From Escherichia phage JLBYU08, in the sequence record OK272482.1: 64,000 nt of DNA; one strand, 5' to 3'. The translations under genes were made by a program, and so were the position numbers. Under the pieces are notes generated by a model, which was given only the letters and a program-made list of their open reading frames with translations, was not told where the DNA came from and did no database searches. Positions 15,771-20,835 of this stretch are shown in pieces. Each line of letters opens with the position of its first letter. Position 1 is the first letter of the stretch.

Positions 15771-16066
15771 CAACTTCAAGATAGCGGTTAGATTGTTACC
15801 ATAGAAGGTCAAGGGTAAGTGGAGGAAGTTCTAGTAGAGAGAGGTTAGCATGTGTGGGAAATCTATAATGGTGGCCTGGAATATGGTGCAAACGATAGGA
15901 TGAGTTATTCAGCTTGTCGCGCCTACTCTGAAAAATCCATTTTAGTTTTCGATCCATTTTCTGATTTTCTAAGAATTTTAAAATATCCAGCCCGGTGAAA
16001 TATCAAAAGGAGGAAATCCATTTTAGAAATCCCCCTTATACTTGATATGCCAGAAATTTTCAAGTA

Positions 16067-16396
16067 TCAGTTGTCTTTGTTTTTAGGTTTGTACATGCGC
16101 AGAGGTATGGTCTTTGTAACATTCCATTTCCTCAACCCTTCCCAGCTCCAGTTGTGGGCGTGGTATCCGGTTATGCATGCACTACTGGAGTGATCGTAAG
16201 CATAAGAGAACGCTAAGCGCACCAGGTGGGGCCAGTCCTTCCATGGTTGTGGACCGTAAGCTTTTCTCCAACACCGACACAAACTAAATGTCTCAAGGAT
16301 AGGAAGGATAACAAACCCATACACTGTCACCAAAATAGCCAGTGCAATGATTGTCAGGAATACATACCCTGCAGTTGAAATGATGATCTCTGTCAT
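16067..16396 (-). CDS. membrane protein, 109 aa
   Basis: N-terminal hydrophobic segment; AGGGGAGGA SD; ATGA coupling. Confidence 0.6.
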   Translation of the reverse strand: MTEIIISTAGYVFLTIIALAILVTVYGFVILPILETFSLCRCWRKAYGPQPWKDWPHLVRLAFSYAYDHSSSACITGYHAHNWSWEGLRKWNVTKTIPLRMYKPKNKDN

Positions 16397-16590
16397 TTGT
16401 CCTCCCCTTTCTTACGAATATAGATGTGAGATCCTGCCTGTATATAAATTTCTCGACCATCTTCTGCAAAGATATGAAATACACGATCACCTTCGTACTC
16501 GATACGAGATATTTTCATAATGGTCTTTCCACCTGGGATACGGATCTCGTCCCCCACAGCGATGTTCCATGCAGATTTAAGCTTAAACAT
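16393..16590 (-). CDS. hypothetical protein, about 65 aa
   Basis: AAGGAAGG SD before internal ATG of track ORF. Confidence 0.5.
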   Translation of the reverse strand: MFKLKSAWNIAVGDEIRIPGGKTIMKISRIEYEGDRVFHIFAEDGREIYIQAGSHIYIRKKGEDK

Positions 16591-16828
16591 CTGCACCTTC
16601 CTTTGGGAGCTCGAACTCTGGCATAGCCATATACGCCACAACAGGGTTGTAATCAAAGTAGAAATGACCGTTAATTATCCCAGTTTTGTGAGCATAGTCA
16701 CCAGATCCTGCAAGAACAACCTCGCAAACTCCGAAATCAACCTTGCCATTCTCATCTGCCATGGCTACAATATACTTTCCTAGAGGCATGTTTTTAACGC
16801 CGTCTACAAATGTCCACCCTTTGTTCAT
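16583..16828 (-). CDS. hypothetical protein, 81 aa
   Basis: ORF with GGAGA SD. Confidence 0.55.
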   Translation of the reverse strand: MNKGWTFVDGVKNMPLGKYIVAMADENGKVDFGVCEVVLAGSGDYAHKTGIINGHFYFDYNPVVAYMAMPEFELPKEGADV

Positions 16829-17447: not shown

Positions 17448-17642
17448 TTACAGGTTACTCCAGTATAATCGGCATTTACATTTTGGGCAATGAGGTTCTT
17501 TTATGTAATAACCATCAGTCTTTGGAACACTTTTTGGTGCAGTTTTAAGATTGTACCTGGTAAAACATCGGAAGCAGGTTACCTCTCCCACCTGTTGATC
17601 GTTGATCCACTCACCAGAGTAAAGCTCTTTCTTGTTTCTCAT
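17448..17642 (-). CDS. zinc-ribbon-like small protein, about 64 aa (CxxC...CxxC)
   Basis: Two Cys pairs; GGGAGAG SD before internal ATG. Confidence 0.5.
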   Translation of the reverse strand: MRNKKELYSGEWINDQQVGEVTCFRCFTRYNLKTAPKSVPKTDGYYIKEPHCPKCKCRLYWSNL

Positions 17643-17668
17643 AATTCTCTCCCAAATCCTCTGCAATC

Positions 17669-17839
17669 TTATACCAAAATCTCCAGCCAGAAAGCACACG
17701 GGAACACCTTGAGGATTGAATCTTTACTTGGCTCGGAAGTTCTTTTTCCGTATGGTAGGTAGAAATACCCCCCTGCAGATTCGAATATAGCTCCTTCGGT
17801 TGTATCTACCACAGCAAGAATTAAGATTTTAGTCTCCAC
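17669..17839 (-). CDS. hypothetical small protein, about 56 aa, GTG start
   Basis: GAGAGGAGAG SD before GTG; not in ORF track. Confidence 0.35.
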   Translation of the reverse strand: METKILILAVVDTTEGAIFESAGGYFYLPYGKRTSEPSKDSILKVFPCAFWLEILV

Positions 17840-17893: not shown

Positions 17894-18352
17894 TCAACAC
17901 TTTTTGTACTCTACTACAACCACATCAATATCTGTGGTTGCAAGATTAATTACATCTTCTACATGTTCCCACTTTAGACCGCCAATACCGCATCCAATTT
18001 TAGGAATGTAGAACGGCAATGACACACCTTTGAATACCTCGTTGACTCGCTCAAAACCTTTCATTATTGAGAAGTATTCAGCATTGGGCCCTGGGTAGAA
18101 CTGGGTATACAGGTTGATTCCATATACGACCCTGTTCTTGGCAAAATGCTCCCAACAAGAAAACATACCCAGCTTGTCCAGATTACCATAGGCAGTCTCT
18201 TTGTCGGCTGCCAGTGCTTGAGGGAACTCACGGGCAATATCTTTCGCTATGCCTGCACCCATTGTATGAAAGCAGTTACAACCGTGGATCAGGTGACCAG
18301 CACCGCTCTTAAAAAGGGAGATTAAATCTCCCGCTACAGTATCAATAATCAC
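17894..18352 (-). CDS. macro-domain protein (ADP-ribose binding/hydrolase-like), 152 aa
   Basis: GDL...HGCNC...MGAGIAKDI and IGCGIGG motifs match macro-domain signatures; GTG start coupled to upstream gene. Confidence 0.7.
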   Translation of the reverse strand: MIIDTVAGDLISLFKSGAGHLIHGCNCFHTMGAGIAKDIAREFPQALAADKETAYGNLDKLGMFSCWEHFAKNRVVYGINLYTQFYPGPNAEYFSIMKGFERVNEVFKGVSLPFYIPKIGCGIGGLKWEHVEDVINLATTDIDVVVVEYKKC

Positions 18353-18767
18353 GGTATGTTAGCTCCTCTTCCGCAATTTCAAAAAACTCATCCCAACCTT
18401 GTGGCATATTTGAGTTGCCGAAGTGGCTTTCATAGTAAAGGTTCTCACCACTTGGGAGATAGAAATCTGTTACCTCGTAGAATCCACAATCGTCGCACTC
18501 GCCTTCTTCAAACTTGGCCTCAACCTTAATACCTAGGAAGGTGAAAAGTTTATGGATATCTTCAGTTTCGAACTCCCAGAAGATATTGTTTTCCGCATCG
18601 GTGTAGAACTGGATCAGCAGACCATTATCCAGTTTACCAAAATATTCTGTGAAGTAACTACCTTCCCAGAAATCTTTATGACAAATAATATCCATGCGCT
18701 TGCCCATGATAAAGGTGTGGGCGTTTTGGGCATCGTCACGAATCAGTTTTGGCATTTCATAGATCAT
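18342..18767 (-). CDS. hypothetical protein, 141 aa, acidic; coupled to macro-domain gene
   Basis: ORF with GGAGAA SD; 11-nt overlap with macro-domain gene. Confidence 0.6.
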   Translation of the reverse strand: MIYEMPKLIRDDAQNAHTFIMGKRMDIICHKDFWEGSYFTEYFGKLDNGLLIQFYTDAENNIFWEFETEDIHKLFTFLGIKVEAKFEEGECDDCGFYEVTDFYLPSGENLYYESHFGNSNMPQGWDEFFEIAEEELTYRDY

Positions 18768-18835
18768 CTTAGTTCTCCGGGTTCAACAGGTGGGGGTGCT
18801 ACAGGAAGATCATAAAACATAGCTATCACAGTCTC

Positions 18836-19608: not shown

Positions 19609-20835
19609 TTAAAATGGGATGTCATCATCAAAGACGTACTGTGCTGGATTCTGATCCATTGGGTCATCTTCCGCATCATTTACAGGAGGAGCGTCTACAG
19701 TGTTTTGCTGTGGAGCTGCTTCCTGTTTGGCAGCCTGAGGTTCTTGATGGTCAGTGGACTCAGCACCGTTCTTGATCCAATCGTACAACGGCTCAGCTAG
19801 ATTAGTCAAGACATCTTTTGCTTCTGCAGTAATTGCCACTGCAAAATCATCAACTTTCGTTTTCTTGTCAATACGGCGACAAGCGTTCAACACCGCATTA
19901 CCGACACTGGCACCTACTTCATCTTCAGTTCGGTTGGTGGCTTGAGCATACTCTTTCTTAAGCTCAATGGTGACTACGTGCAGTGTTTTAGCCACGCCCA
20001 GTGGGTCGTCTACCTTAAACCCGCGATCCAGGATGATCTGCAACGCATTGATGCTATGCCCCGTTTCCACACCGATAGGGTCGTAAGAGGATTTACGCTT
20101 GCCACCAGAGCCTTGAGTGCCGTTCTCTGCCTTAGGGGGATAGGCCTTGAAACCACTGATAATGTTTCCGGTGTCTTTGTCAACAATGGCTGCAACACGA
20201 CCACCTACCACCAGGTCTTTAAGCTGCTCATCAGTTACAACCATAGCACCTTCGCCAATCTTGTGGTCATTAACAGTAACCACGTTGCCAACAATCTGAG
20301 TCACATCACCATAGATGCGTAAAACGTCCTGATTGGCATTCTGCTGAGGTTTCTGCTTCTGGCCTTGTGATTGTGCACCTTGTTGCTGTTTTTGCTGCTG
20401 AGTCGCTGCTGGAGCCTCTCCTGCACCCAGCTTAACCATCTTAGCCAGTGAGCCCTTGTAATAGGTCTTACCGTTATGCTCGTTTGCCTTCAAAGGGATA
20501 TTTACGATCCATCCTGGCGTTACGGTTTCCCACTTGTCATCAATCTTAACAGAGACAGAGTCTTGATGACCTGGTTTAAGCAGCTTATCACCCATGCTGA
20601 TCCAGACTTCTTCACCACCTTGAAGCAGGTTATCAGAGGAATCCAGTTCAGAAATCAGTAAAGAGATGGTGTGGCTGGATTCAATTTTCTTACCTTGCCA
20701 CACAGTGGTTTTAATACCTGTTGTAGGATCAGCACCTTTGATAGGCTTAATGCTAACACGTTTAATCATGCCGTGAGCCAGTAAAACAGTTTCACGCGGA
20801 TTCATTGGGTTAGCGAATTGTTGAATAACGCTCAT
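19609..20835 (-). CDS. single-stranded DNA-binding protein-like, 408 aa, Gln-rich linker, C-terminus DDDIPF
   Basis: Last six residues identical to E. coli SSB tail; Q-rich linker; position beside replication genes; AAGGAG SD. Confidence 0.6.
   Translation of the reverse strand: MSVIQQFANPMNPRETVLLAHGMIKRVSIKPIKGADPTTGIKTTVWQGKKIESSHTISLLISELDSSDNLLQGGEEVWISMGDKLLKPGHQDSVSVKIDDKWETVTPGWIVNIPLKANEHNGKTYYKGSLAKMVKLGAGEAPAATQQQKQQQGAQSQGQKQKPQQNANQDVLRIYGDVTQIVGNVVTVNDHKIGEGAMVVTDEQLKDLVVGGRVAAIVDKDTGNIISGFKAYPPKAENGTQGSGGKRKSSYDPIGVETGHSINALQIILDRGFKVDDPLGVAKTLHVVTIELKKEYAQATNRTEDEVGASVGNAVLNACRRIDKKTKVDDFAVAITAEAKDVLTNLAEPLYDWIKNGAESTDHQEPQAAKQEAAPQQNTVDAPPVNDAEDDPMDQNPAQYVFDDDIPF

What the first reader, a model, noticed from the sequence alone, without database searches (positions are those of the whole stretch)
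17894..18767. Stand-alone macro-domain protein translationally coupled to an unknown acidic protein
The 152-aa product has macro-domain signatures (GDL...HGCNCFHTMGAGIAKDI...IGCGIGG), which implies ADP-ribose binding or removal. Its GTG start overlaps the end of an upstream 141-aa gene of unknown function by 11 nt. Phage macro domains are candidates for reversing ADP-ribosylation imposed by host defences or toxins; the coupled partner could be a regulator or a second component.
Basis: partly seen in the sequence, partly recalled or inferred. Interest (0 to 1): 0.6.

Follow-up and report, generated by a model that had tools for sequence, protein, structure and literature searches.

The report
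Phage Tk.4-type macrodomain counter-defence gene
This is the rV5-like coliphage copy of a widespread phage macrodomain enzyme whose T4 relative was recently shown to protect T4 from the DNA-ADP-ribosylating DarTG2 defence; the overlapping acidic upstream gene looks like an unrelated neighbour, so the finding is real but largely already explained.

Summary
On the minus strand, a 152-aa ORF (17894-18352, GTG start) overlaps a 141-aa acidic ORF (18342-18767; pI 4.2, net charge -21) by 11 nt. The window is a Vequintavirus, 99% identical to phage Murica, where the gene is already annotated 'phosphatase, contains Macro domain'.

The 152-aa protein has a confident macro fold (pLDDT 94). It is a full-length homologue of T4 Tk.4 (39% identity, E 1e-43) and RB49 Tk.4 (69%). 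A 2025 preprint shows that deleting T4 tk.4 ('AdfM') sensitises T4 to DarTG2. The family has Gln84/Asn26 where DarG/TARG1 have a catalytic Lys, as in SCO6735, which removes ADP-ribose from thymidine in DNA.

The same family also contains Vibrio-phage Adpp, a proven ADPR-1''-phosphate phosphatase (34% identity, identical invariant residues). That is a live rival, although this phage lacks the NARP1 genes Adpp works with.

The partner is a narrowly distributed ORFan. In Krischvirus its homologue lies 9 kb from tk.4, next to dam, and 29% of neighbouring gene pairs here overlap. Functional coupling is therefore not supported.

Verdict: new member of a known kind, of modest interest.

The parts
17894..18352 (-). 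152-aa stand-alone macrodomain protein, Tk.4/AdfM family (phrog_335). Key residues are H23, N26, T30, D50, K60, N80, Y82, Q84 and the P117-x-x-G120-x-G122 loop.
   Evidence: ORF. Pfam PF01661 E 1e-5. phrog_335 E 1.4e-59. 39% identity, E 1e-43 to T4 Tk.4. 69% identity to RB49 Tk.4. AF2 pLDDT 94.4. Foldseek hits Poa1p, TARG1 and DarG at E 1e-9 to 1e-8. 13 invariant columns across 95 homologues.
18342..18767 (-). 141-aa strongly acidic protein of unknown function (phrog_8157). It has a conserved C-terminal module of about 55 aa: EGECDDCGxYxVxDxxLPSGxxxYxExHFGNxNxPxxWxEFF.
   Evidence: ORF. phrog_8157 E 5.6e-81, no Pfam match. pI 4.21, net charge -21. Only about 10 real relatives among 1.84 billion representatives. 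Alignment A4. AF2 model unusable, pLDDT 45.5.
18342..18352 (-). 11-nt overlap. The macro GTG start (18350-18352) lies inside the last codons of the upstream gene, whose TGA stop is at 18342-18344.
   Evidence: Read directly from the sequence. The same arrangement is annotated in Murica, A51.2, MaxBurger and EdH4.
18363..18368 (-). GAGGAG Shine-Dalgarno sequence for the macro gene, 10 nt upstream of the GTG, inside the upstream ORF.
   Evidence: Sequence. Murica annotates a ribosome-binding site at the equivalent place.
18775..18778 (-). GGAG ribosome-binding site of the 141-aa gene.
   Evidence: Sequence. It corresponds to the ribosome-binding site annotated for Murica gp090.
18316..18332 (-). 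Terminator-like hairpin GGGAGAT-TTA-ATCTCCC followed by TTTTT, 18 nt inside the macro ORF. It is probably a by-product of the codons for GDLISLFK.
   Evidence: Consensus scan. Annotated as 'terminator' in Murica. Fold -12.2 kcal/mol, z-score only -1.7. Only partly conserved in A51.2 and MaxBurger.

Best explanation
The 152-aa gene is the Vequintavirus member of the phage Tk.4 macrodomain family, which a 2025 preprint named AdfM in T4. It is a small stand-alone enzyme that binds ADP-ribose and cleaves the bond at the ribose C1'' position.

The most likely role is counter-defence. When a DarT2-type toxin ADP-ribosylates thymidines in single-stranded phage DNA during replication, the enzyme would remove the ADP-ribose so that replication can continue. 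In effect it would be an orphan antitoxin.

Catalysis is inferred to follow the SCO6735 type. Gln84, held in place by Asn26, positions the distal ribose, and there is no catalytic Lys or Asp. The gene lies in a block of small, dispensable, probably early genes downstream of the DNA polymerase and is exchanged between phages as a cassette.

The upstream 141-aa acidic gene is most likely an independent accessory gene that merely abuts it.

What is shown: gene structure, macro fold, family membership, residue conservation, distribution and dispensability. What is inferred: the substrate (DarT2-modified DNA) and the counter-defence role in this particular phage.
For: Family membership:
- Full-length homology to T4 Tk.4 (39% identity, 128 bits, E 1e-43) and to the syntenic RB49 Tk.4 (69%).
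- T4 and RB49 Tk.4 are themselves only 44% identical, so the window protein sits inside the Tk.4 spread.
- An NJ tree groups the window protein with T4 Tk.4, excluding Adpp, in 70 of 100 bootstraps.

Functional evidence from relatives:
- In T4, tk.4 was the single hit when a transposon library was challenged with DarTG2, and a clean knockout sensitised T4 (bioRxiv 10.1101/2025.11.20.689424, read).
- DarG models match the macro protein: PADLOC DarG E 1.4e-13 and NCBIfam antitoxin_DarG E 1.7e-12 over the macro part.
- The best single-sequence PDB hit is the M. tuberculosis DarG macrodomain.

Active site:
- Q84 and N26 are invariant in 95 of 95 homologues.
- They align with SCO6735 Q85 and N27. 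Those residues are required for removing thymidine-linked ADP-ribose from DNA, and SCO6735 rescues cells from DarT (PMC9411070).

Structure: AF2 model pLDDT 94.4; Foldseek TM 0.69-0.77 to Poa1p, TARG1 and DarG.

Genomic setting:
- Like T4, this phage has no NARP1 genes (tblastn best E 0.24 and 0.95), so a stand-alone role like T4's fits.
- Accessory character: the ortholog bas54_0092 is non-essential (31 of 31 TA sites hit). A natural deletion variant exists. A mosaic allele is confined to the ORF.
Against: - No experiment exists on any Vequintavirus protein. The Bas54 library was not challenged with DarTG2.
- The T4 evidence is genetic, from a preprint, and no enzymology was shown for Tk.4.
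- Identity to T4 Tk.4 is only 39%.
- The family also contains Adpp, a proven ADPR-1''-phosphate phosphatase with the same 13 invariant residues. Sequence therefore cannot say which substrate is used.
- The SCO6735 DNA-binding lysines K34 and K89 correspond to A33 and G88 here, and Val25 corresponds to G24. The protein is mildly acidic (net charge -3), which is not what one expects of a DNA-binding surface.
- Tree support for grouping with T4 Tk.4 is only moderate (70%).
Confidence: 0.55

Rival explanations
1. It is an ADPR-1''-phosphate phosphatase of the Adpp/Poa1p type. It would convert the ADPR-1''-phosphate made by RES-domain NAD+ phosphorylases (the aRES defence) back to ADP-ribose, or otherwise clear ADPR-1''-phosphate. 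This could be its main activity or a second one alongside DNA de-ADP-ribosylation.
For: - Vibrio phage Gary Adpp (KNV71_gp137) was shown by LC-MS to dephosphorylate ADPR-1''-phosphate and is needed to overcome aRES (bioRxiv 10.64898/2026.01.28.702374).
- It is a homologue of the window protein (34% identity, E 8e-19) and shares all 13 family-invariant residues.
- Searching with the near-identical Ceto orthologue of Adpp recovers a similarly large set of phage records with a closely matching taxonomic make-up (2,715 against 2,830).
- Poa1p is the top Foldseek hit (E 7.6e-10).
- Poa1p H23 and S30, the residues mutated in PDB entries 6LFS and 6LFT, align with H23 and T30 here.
- GenBank annotates the gene as 'phosphatase' or 'Poa1p-like'.
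Against: - Adpp works inside an Adps-Adpp-Namat operon. Neither Adps nor Namat has any homologue in the window or in the complete genome of the close relative A51.2, so ADP-ribose could not be rebuilt into NAD+ by the phage.
- The window protein scores twice as high against T4 Tk.4 as against Adpp (128 against 65 bits). It shares the short YTQF-PGPN loop of Tk.4, whereas Adpp has a 7-residue insertion there.
- Bootstrap support for grouping with Adpp rather than T4 Tk.4 is 11 of 100.
Confidence: 0.2
2. It acts on another ADP-ribose conjugate. Candidates are ADP-ribosylated protein or RNA (for example from host ADP-ribosyltransferase toxins such as the mRNA-modifying CmdTAC), or O-acetyl-ADP-ribose produced by the phage's own SIR2-family enzyme.
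For: - TARG1/OARD1 and SCO6735, which are close structural and profile relatives, hydrolyse protein-linked ADP-ribose; SCO6735 does both protein and DNA.
- JGI names homologues 'O-acetyl-ADP-ribose deacetylase'.
- The close relative A51.2 is annotated with a SIR2-family protein, A512_178.
Against: - The TARG1 catalytic pair K84/D125 is absent; the equivalent residues are Q84 and G124.
- The SIR2-like gene is about 50 kb away, outside this window, and not linked to the macro gene.
- No ADP-ribosyltransferase was found among the 70 window ORFs scanned with Pfam.
- There is no experimental link of this family to those substrates.
Confidence: 0.12
3. The two overlapping genes form a two-component unit. 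The acidic 141-aa protein would regulate the macrodomain, or would bind and block the ADP-ribosyltransferase, as the DNA-mimicking C-terminal domain of DarG does.
For: - The 11-nt overlap with an internal Shine-Dalgarno sequence is conserved in every Vequintavirus examined.
- The partner is extremely acidic, net charge -21, as DNA mimics are.
- DarG neutralises DarT both enzymatically and by binding (papers read).
Against: - The partner is absent from almost all of the roughly 2,800 phage records that carry the macro family.
- In RB49 its homologue (36% identity, E 1e-25) is 9 kb from tk.4 and overlaps dam by 1 nt.
- The Seunavirus macro gene has a different upstream gene.
- The partner does not match the PADLOC or NCBIfam DarG models at E up to 0.1.
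- The divergent macro allele in EdH4 is centred on the macro ORF; the partner stays at 91-96% nucleotide identity, dipping only at its 3' end.
- Several neighbouring genes are also acidic, and 29% of local gene pairs overlap.
Confidence: 0.05

Closest known systems
T4 Tk.4 = AdfM (anti-DarT factor Macrodomain; bioRxiv 10.1101/2025.11.20.689424)
   Same: Both are stand-alone proteins of about 150 aa. They are 39% identical over the full length (E 1e-43) and share all 13 family-invariant residues, including N26 and Q84, and the same short YTQF-PGPN loop. Both are non-essential in the laboratory, and both phages lack NARP1.
   Different: The genomic setting differs: T4 has vs-tk.4-tk, whereas here the gene sits in a small-gene block downstream of the DNA polymerase. 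The identity is only 39%. The Vequintavirus protein has never been tested, and the T4 enzyme's chemistry has not been shown.
Vibrio phage Gary Adpp (ADPR-1''-phosphate phosphatase of NARP1-AP; bioRxiv 10.64898/2026.01.28.702374)
   Same: It belongs to the same family, with 34% identity (E 8e-19) and identical invariant residues. Poa1p is the nearest characterised structure for both.
   Different: Adpp sits between Adps and Namat and needs them; this phage has neither. Adpp has a 7-residue longer loop after the conserved Gln.
Streptomyces coelicolor SCO6735 and Bacteroides BT1257 (Gln-type ALC1-like macrodomains; PDB 5E3B, 2FG1)
   Same: They have Gln at the position of the DarG/TARG1 catalytic Lys and the supporting Asn (Q84/N26 against Q85/N27). 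They are among the best profile-to-PDB hits, E about 1e-14. SCO6735 is a stand-alone enzyme that removes thymidine-linked ADP-ribose and protects against DarT.
   Different: Val25, Lys34 and Lys89 of SCO6735 are Gly24, Ala33 and Gly88 here. The loop after the Gln is shorter. These are bacterial chromosomal genes, not phage genes.
DarG2 antitoxin macrodomain (PDB 5M31, 5M3E, 5M3I) and chimallivirus AdfM (PhiKZ gp104; PMC13309987)
   Same: They have the same fold (TM 0.74) and match the PADLOC and NCBIfam DarG models. PhiKZ AdfM is a phage-borne orphan macrodomain that removes DarT2 marks from DNA.
   Different: They use a catalytic Lys (K80, or K78 in the FPTKDNW motif), which is Gln here. DarG has a C-terminal DarT-binding domain that is absent here. 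PhiKZ AdfM is only 22-25% identical. The name AdfM now covers two different clades.
Human TARG1/OARD1 and yeast Poa1p
   Same: They are in the same structural class (Foldseek E about 1e-9, TM 0.69-0.77). The Poa1p H23-x-C-N-C motif and numbering match exactly.
   Different: The TARG1 K84/D125 pair is absent. These are eukaryotic housekeeping enzymes with roughly 23-25% identity to the window protein.

Membership tests
Macro domain superfamily (Pfam PF01661) | Match to the family HMM above the curated threshold | tested here: met
   25.9 bits against a cutoff of 22, E 1e-5; only residues 22-53 align. A profile of 95 homologues hits 28 PDB macrodomains, the best at E 1.5e-14.
Macro domain superfamily (Pfam PF01661) | Three-layer alpha/beta/alpha macro fold | tested here: met
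   AF2 pLDDT 94.4, pTM 0.90. Foldseek TM 0.69-0.77 to Poa1p, TARG1, DarG, BT1257 and SCO6735.
Macro domain superfamily (Pfam PF01661) | Binds or hydrolyses ADP-ribose derivatives | not testable with these tools
   The glycine-rich loops MGAGIA and IGCGIGG are present and conserved. There is no biochemistry.
Phage Tk.4 / AdfM family (phrog_335) | Full-length homology to T4 Tk.4 | tested here: met
   39% identity, 128 bits, E 1e-43, residues 1-150. phrog_335 E 1.4e-59. 69% identity to RB49 Tk.4.
Phage Tk.4 / AdfM family (phrog_335) | Family-invariant residues: G24 N26 C27 M31 G34 A36 D50 N80 Y82 Q84 P117 G120 G122 | tested here: met
   All 13 are present in the window protein, T4 Tk.4 and RB49 Tk.4.
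Phage Tk.4 / AdfM family (phrog_335) | Groups with T4 Tk.4 rather than with Adpp | tested here: inconclusive
   NJ bootstrap 70 of 100 for, 11 of 100 for the alternative. Bit scores are 128 against 65.
Phage Tk.4 / AdfM family (phrog_335) | Loss of the gene sensitises the phage to DarTG2 | not testable with these tools
   Shown only for T4. Bas54 was not challenged with DarTG2.
DarG antitoxin (NCBIfam NF048014, PADLOC DarG) | Score above the equivalog cutoff | tested here: not met
   47.3 bits against a cutoff of 250. Only model positions 4-144 of 338 are matched.
DarG antitoxin (NCBIfam NF048014, PADLOC DarG) | C-terminal DarT-binding domain | tested here: not met
   The protein is 152 aa and consists of the macrodomain only. 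The neighbouring 141-aa protein has no match to either DarG model.
DarG antitoxin (NCBIfam NF048014, PADLOC DarG) | Catalytic Lys (T. aquaticus K80) | tested here: not met
   The aligned residue is Q84, invariant in the family.
DarG antitoxin (NCBIfam NF048014, PADLOC DarG) | Adjacent darT toxin gene | tested here: not met
   The neighbours are small phage genes. A bacterial stand-alone homologue also lacks a DarT neighbour.
SCO6735-type (Gln-type) ALC1-like macrodomains | Gln at the Lys position plus the supporting Asn (Q85/N27) | tested here: met
   Q84 and N26 are invariant in 95 of 95 homologues and align to SCO6735 and BT1257. The roles of these residues are from PMC9411070.
SCO6735-type (Gln-type) ALC1-like macrodomains | Val/Ile25 and the DNA-binding Lys34 and Lys89 | tested here: not met
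   By the alignment they correspond to G24, A33 and G88.
Adpp of the NARP1-AP pathway | Homology to Vibrio phage Gary Adpp | tested here: met
   34% identity, E 8e-19, with the same invariant residues.
Adpp of the NARP1-AP pathway | Encoded within or next to an Adps-Namat (NARP1) operon | tested here: not met
   There is no Adps or Namat homologue in the window or in the whole A51.2 genome (best E 0.24 and 0.95). Pfam found no such domains in 70 window ORFs.
Adpp of the NARP1-AP pathway | ADPR-1''-phosphate phosphatase activity | not testable with these tools
   Shown only for the Gary protein.
TARG1/OARD1 | Catalytic Lys84/Asp125 pair | tested here: not met
   The equivalent residues are Q84 and G124.
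Two-gene functional module (macro plus acidic partner) | Conserved linkage of the two families across lineages | tested here: not met
   They are linked only in Vequintavirus. They are unlinked in Krischvirus RB49, and the partner is absent from Seunavirus and most other carriers of the macro family.

The most novel reading that the evidence does not exclude
The acidic 141-aa protein is a lineage-specific second component. It would be a DNA-mimic-like binder that blocks DarT2 (or another ADP-ribosyltransferase) directly while the macrodomain erases the marks. The overlapping pair would then reproduce, as two polypeptides, the two neutralising activities that DarG combines in one.

A milder variant is that Tk.4-family enzymes are bifunctional, acting both as a thymidine-ADP-ribose glycohydrolase and as an ADPR-1''-phosphate phosphatase, and so counter both DarTG2 and RES-type NAD+ phosphorylases. 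I put that variant at about 0.25.
Probability: 0.05. Interest if true: 0.6.

Novelty: new member of a known kind. Interest (0 to 1): 0.3.

Why it matters
If the assignment holds, rV5-like coliphages, a group used in phage-therapy cocktails against E. coli O157 and other strains, carry a ready-made countermeasure to DarTG2. That would help explain their broad host range and help predict which defence systems will not stop them.

The analysis also shows that two recently named counter-defence proteins belong to one very large phage family, present in about 5% of sequenced phage genomes, and share identical conserved residues. These are T4 AdfM (anti-DarTG2, genetic evidence) and Vibrio-phage Adpp (anti-aRES, enzymatic evidence). 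So substrate specificity in this family, or bifunctionality, is an open question that can be tested cheaply.

The name AdfM is also being used for a second, non-orthologous Lys-type clade in jumbo phages.

Tried and rejected
1. The partner as the DarG C-terminal domain. Both DarG profile models were scanned with the partner and gave no hit at E up to 0.1.

2. Partner fold.
- A PDB profile search found nothing at E up to 10.
- The AF2 model from 4 sequences reached only pLDDT 45.5.
- The Foldseek search against viral structures gave only noise, best E 0.022 and TM 0.21. I draw no conclusion about the fold.

3. Distant partner relatives. An exhaustive HMM search of 1.84 billion representatives gave 13 hits. 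Three are large multidomain proteins matched only over short stretches; one is clearly eukaryotic, with VWD/TIL repeats. I treat these three as compositional false positives.

4. Linkage of bacterial homologues to DarT. The Pelagimonas chromosomal homologue has housekeeping neighbours. The hit labelled 'A. baumannii' is actually on a T4-like phage contig.

5. A phage-encoded ADP-ribosyltransferase, NADAR or NAD+ salvage gene in the window. None was found among 70 ORFs scanned with Pfam.

6. The internal terminator-like hairpin as a regulatory element. The fold z-score is only -1.7 and the hairpin is only partly conserved. I record it only in passing.

Full report
**Observation**

The first is 17894-18352, 152 aa, with a GTG start. 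The second is 18342-18767, 141 aa, with an ATG start. They overlap by exactly 11 nt. The quoted motifs are present.

A GAGGAG Shine-Dalgarno sequence lies 10 nt upstream of the GTG, inside the upstream gene. The GTG start is conserved in five Vequintavirus genomes. In phage RB49 the homologue starts with ATG at the same codon and has the same MIIDTV N-terminus.

The upstream protein is indeed very acidic: pI 4.21 and net charge -21. Both genes are under purifying selection, with dN/dS of 0.05-0.22.

**Origin of the window**

The region is 99% identical to Escherichia phage Murica and 90-99% identical to 111 of the 121 matching records, which are rV5-like phages of the genus Vequintavirus. In Murica the macro gene is gp091, annotated 'phosphatase, contains Macro domain'. 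Other records call it 'macro domain protein' or 'Poa1p-like', and the upstream gene gp090 is 'hypothetical'. One record notes the conserved domain 'tk.4 PHA02595'. At the level of annotation the feature is therefore already known.

**The macro protein: fold**

- Pfam Macro is matched just above threshold, 25.9 bits.
- PHROG 335 is matched at E 1e-59.
- An alignment of 95 homologues, used as a profile, hits PDB macrodomains over the full length. The hits are BT1257 (1.5e-14), M. tuberculosis DarG (3e-14), SCO6735 (3.4e-14), TARG1 (2e-13) and Poa1p (3e-12).
- The AlphaFold2 model is confident, with pLDDT 94.4 and pTM 0.90.
- The model matches Poa1p, TARG1, the DarG macrodomains, BT1257 and SCO6735 at E 1e-7 to 1e-10 and TM 0.69-0.77.

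**The macro protein: which family**

The protein is a full-length homologue of T4 Tk.4 (39% identity, E 1e-43). It is 69% identical to RB49 Tk.4, which sits in the T4-like vs-tk.4-tk position. T4 and RB49 Tk.4 are themselves only 44% identical.

The family is found in 2,830 of 50,697 phage records.

Thirteen columns are invariant across the 95 homologues: G24, N26, C27, M31, G34, A36, D50, N80, Y82, Q84, P117, G120 and G122. Q84 occupies the position of the catalytic Lys of DarG (K80) and TARG1 (K84). The TARG1 Asp125 position is Gly.

This is the SCO6735/BT1257 arrangement. In SCO6735, Q85A and N27S abolish removal of thymidine-linked ADP-ribose from DNA, and the enzyme protects against DarT (PMC9411070).

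**What is known experimentally about the family**

1. A November 2025 preprint (10.1101/2025.11.20.689424) challenged a T4 transposon library with DarTG2. It found tk.4 as the single hit, and a clean knockout sensitised T4. The authors named the gene adfM. Enzyme activity was inferred, not shown.

2. A January 2026 preprint (10.64898/2026.01.28.702374) showed that a macrodomain protein between Adps and Namat in Vibrio phage Gary, named Adpp, dephosphorylates ADPR-1''-phosphate. This lets NARP1 overcome the RES-domain defence aRES.

I fetched Gary Adpp and compared it directly. It is 34% identical to the window protein (E 8e-19) and 35% identical to T4 Tk.4. It carries all 13 invariant residues. 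Searching with its near-identical Ceto orthologue gives a similarly large set of phage records, 2,715, with a closely matching taxonomic make-up. AdfM and Adpp are therefore members of one family, and sequence alone cannot separate their chemistries.

3. A 2026 Cell Reports paper (PMC13309987) gives the name AdfM to PhiKZ gp104, which removes DarT2 marks from DNA in vitro. That protein is of the DarG-like Lys type (FPTKDNW motif) and only 22-25% identical to the Tk.4 family. It belongs to a different clade.

**Choosing between the two functions**

Several observations favour the T4-like role:
- The window protein scores 128 bits against T4 Tk.4 and 65 bits against Adpp.
- It shares the short YTQF-PGPN loop of Tk.4, whereas Adpp has a 7-residue insertion there.
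- It groups with T4 Tk.4 to the exclusion of Adpp in 70 of 100 bootstraps, against 11 of 100 for the alternative.
- Adpp needs Adps and Namat. Neither has a homologue in the window or in the complete genome of the close relative A51.2 (best E 0.24 and 0.95), and none appears in 70 window ORFs scanned with Pfam. T4, where the DarTG2 phenotype was seen, also carries tk.4 as a stand-alone gene.

Several observations count against over-confidence:
- No Vequintavirus protein has been tested.
- The Bas54 library in the preprint was not challenged with DarTG2.
- The DNA-binding lysines of SCO6735 are not conserved.
- The T4 evidence is genetic only.

I put the anti-DarT2 DNA de-ADP-ribosylase reading at about 0.55 and the ADPR-1''-phosphate phosphatase reading at about 0.2. 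The two may not be mutually exclusive.

**Accessory character of the macro gene**

- In Bas54 (= MaxBurger), both bas54_0092 (macro) and bas54_0091 (partner) were scored non-essential, with 31 of 31 and 21 of 23 TA sites hit.
- One 135.5-kb assembly carries a natural in-frame deletion between 10-nt repeats (CCAGTTCTAC). It fuses the first ~56 residues of the partner to the C-terminal ~68 residues (from about position 85) of the macrodomain.
- Between this window and phage EdH4, nucleotide identity is 96-100% in the flanks. It falls to 66-80% only inside the macro ORF and returns to 99% exactly at its stop codon. dS is 1.03 for the macro gene against 0.36 for the partner. This is the pattern of an exchanged cassette.

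**The partner**

- It has no Pfam, NCBIfam, PADLOC or PDB match.
- A word-index search of 5.8 billion proteins found four clusters.
- An exhaustive profile search of 1.84 billion representatives found about ten real relatives.
- tblastn finds it in 176 phage records. These are the Vequintaviruses at 90% identity or more, Krischvirus at about 36% identity, and a C-terminal fragment in a few other T4-like phages.
- A C-terminal module of about 55 aa is conserved.
- The AF2 model is unusable, pLDDT 45.5.

In RB49 the homologue ORF064c (E 1e-25) lies 9 kb and about 27 genes from tk.4 and overlaps dam by 1 nt. In the sister genus Seunavirus the macro gene follows a different 70-aa gene. Ten of 34 adjacent gene pairs in the homologous Murica stretch overlap, one of them also by 11 nt. 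Several neighbouring genes are also acidic.

The overlap is thus ordinary phage gene packing and not evidence of a shared function. The 'second component' idea is not excluded, but I give it about 0.05.

**Verdict**

The gene is a new, untested member of a known and recently characterised kind of phage counter-defence enzyme. The main added value is the finding that AdfM and Adpp belong to one family, which leaves substrate specificity open. Interest is 0.3.

Noticed in passing
window 19609-20835 (-): A 408-aa protein (phrog_4477, function unknown) ends in ...VFDDDIPF. From my own knowledge this matches the C-terminal tip of E. coli SSB (DFDDDIPF). The protein also has a Gln-rich linker. Its Bas54 ortholog bas54_0087 was scored 'Essential' in HIDEN-SEQ. 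It may be the phage SSB or a mimic of the SSB tail.
   Followed up: no
window 17901-18300 compared with L010 (phage EdH4): Nucleotide identity to EdH4 is 96-100% in the flanks, drops to 66-80% only inside the macro ORF, and returns to 99% exactly at its stop codon. This is a mosaic allele. In tblastn, 73 phage records carry a macro allele only 80-90% identical in amino acids, whereas the partner is at least 90% identical in every Vequintavirus record.
   Followed up: partly
L016:2501-2866 (Logan ERR11560567, 135.5-kb contig): A natural deletion variant exists. A single 121-aa ORF fuses about the first 56 residues of the partner to about the last 68 residues of the macrodomain at a shared QFY / 10-nt CCAGTTCTAC repeat, in an otherwise syntenic genome.
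   Followed up: partly
window 18316-18332 (-): A terminator-like hairpin plus T-run lies 18 nt inside the macro ORF and is annotated 'terminator' in Murica. The fold is weak (z-score -1.7) and the hairpin is only partly conserved in other Vequintaviruses.
   Followed up: partly
L007:10735-11166 (RB49 ORF064c) and L007:9923-10735 (dam): The Krischvirus homologue of the acidic partner sits immediately upstream of the dam methylase gene and overlaps it by 1 nt.
   Followed up: partly
literature; L003:4423-4890 (T4 tk.4), L011:7518-8006 (PhiKZ gp104), L021:1173-1649 (Gary Adpp): The name AdfM is used for two non-orthologous macrodomain clades, the T4 Tk.4 Gln type and the PhiKZ gp104 Lys type. T4 AdfM and Vibrio-phage Adpp belong to one family and share identical invariant residues.
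   Followed up: yes
window 17448-17699 (-): An 83-aa protein matches Pfam PF23903, a phage zinc-binding domain (E 1.6e-22). It lies two genes downstream of the macro gene.
   Followed up: no
between window 19546 and 19609; L004:2809-3432 (MaxBurger bas54_0088): A homing-endonuclease or endonuclease VII gene of about 620-640 bp is present in some Vequintaviruses and absent from this window and from Murica.
   Followed up: no
L018:17056-17817 and 15786-16700 (phage A51.2, outside this window): The close relative A51.2 is annotated with a SIR2-family 'NAD-dependent protein deacetylase', an RNA ligase and a phosphoesterase about 50 kb from the macro gene. These are other NAD/ADP-ribose-related and RNA-repair functions in this phage group.
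   Followed up: no
public records MG065654-MG065677: Sixteen unannotated GenBank records named 'Campylobacter phage' are about 97% identical to E. coli Vequintaviruses over this locus. This suggests mislabelled or contaminating phage genomes.
   Followed up: no
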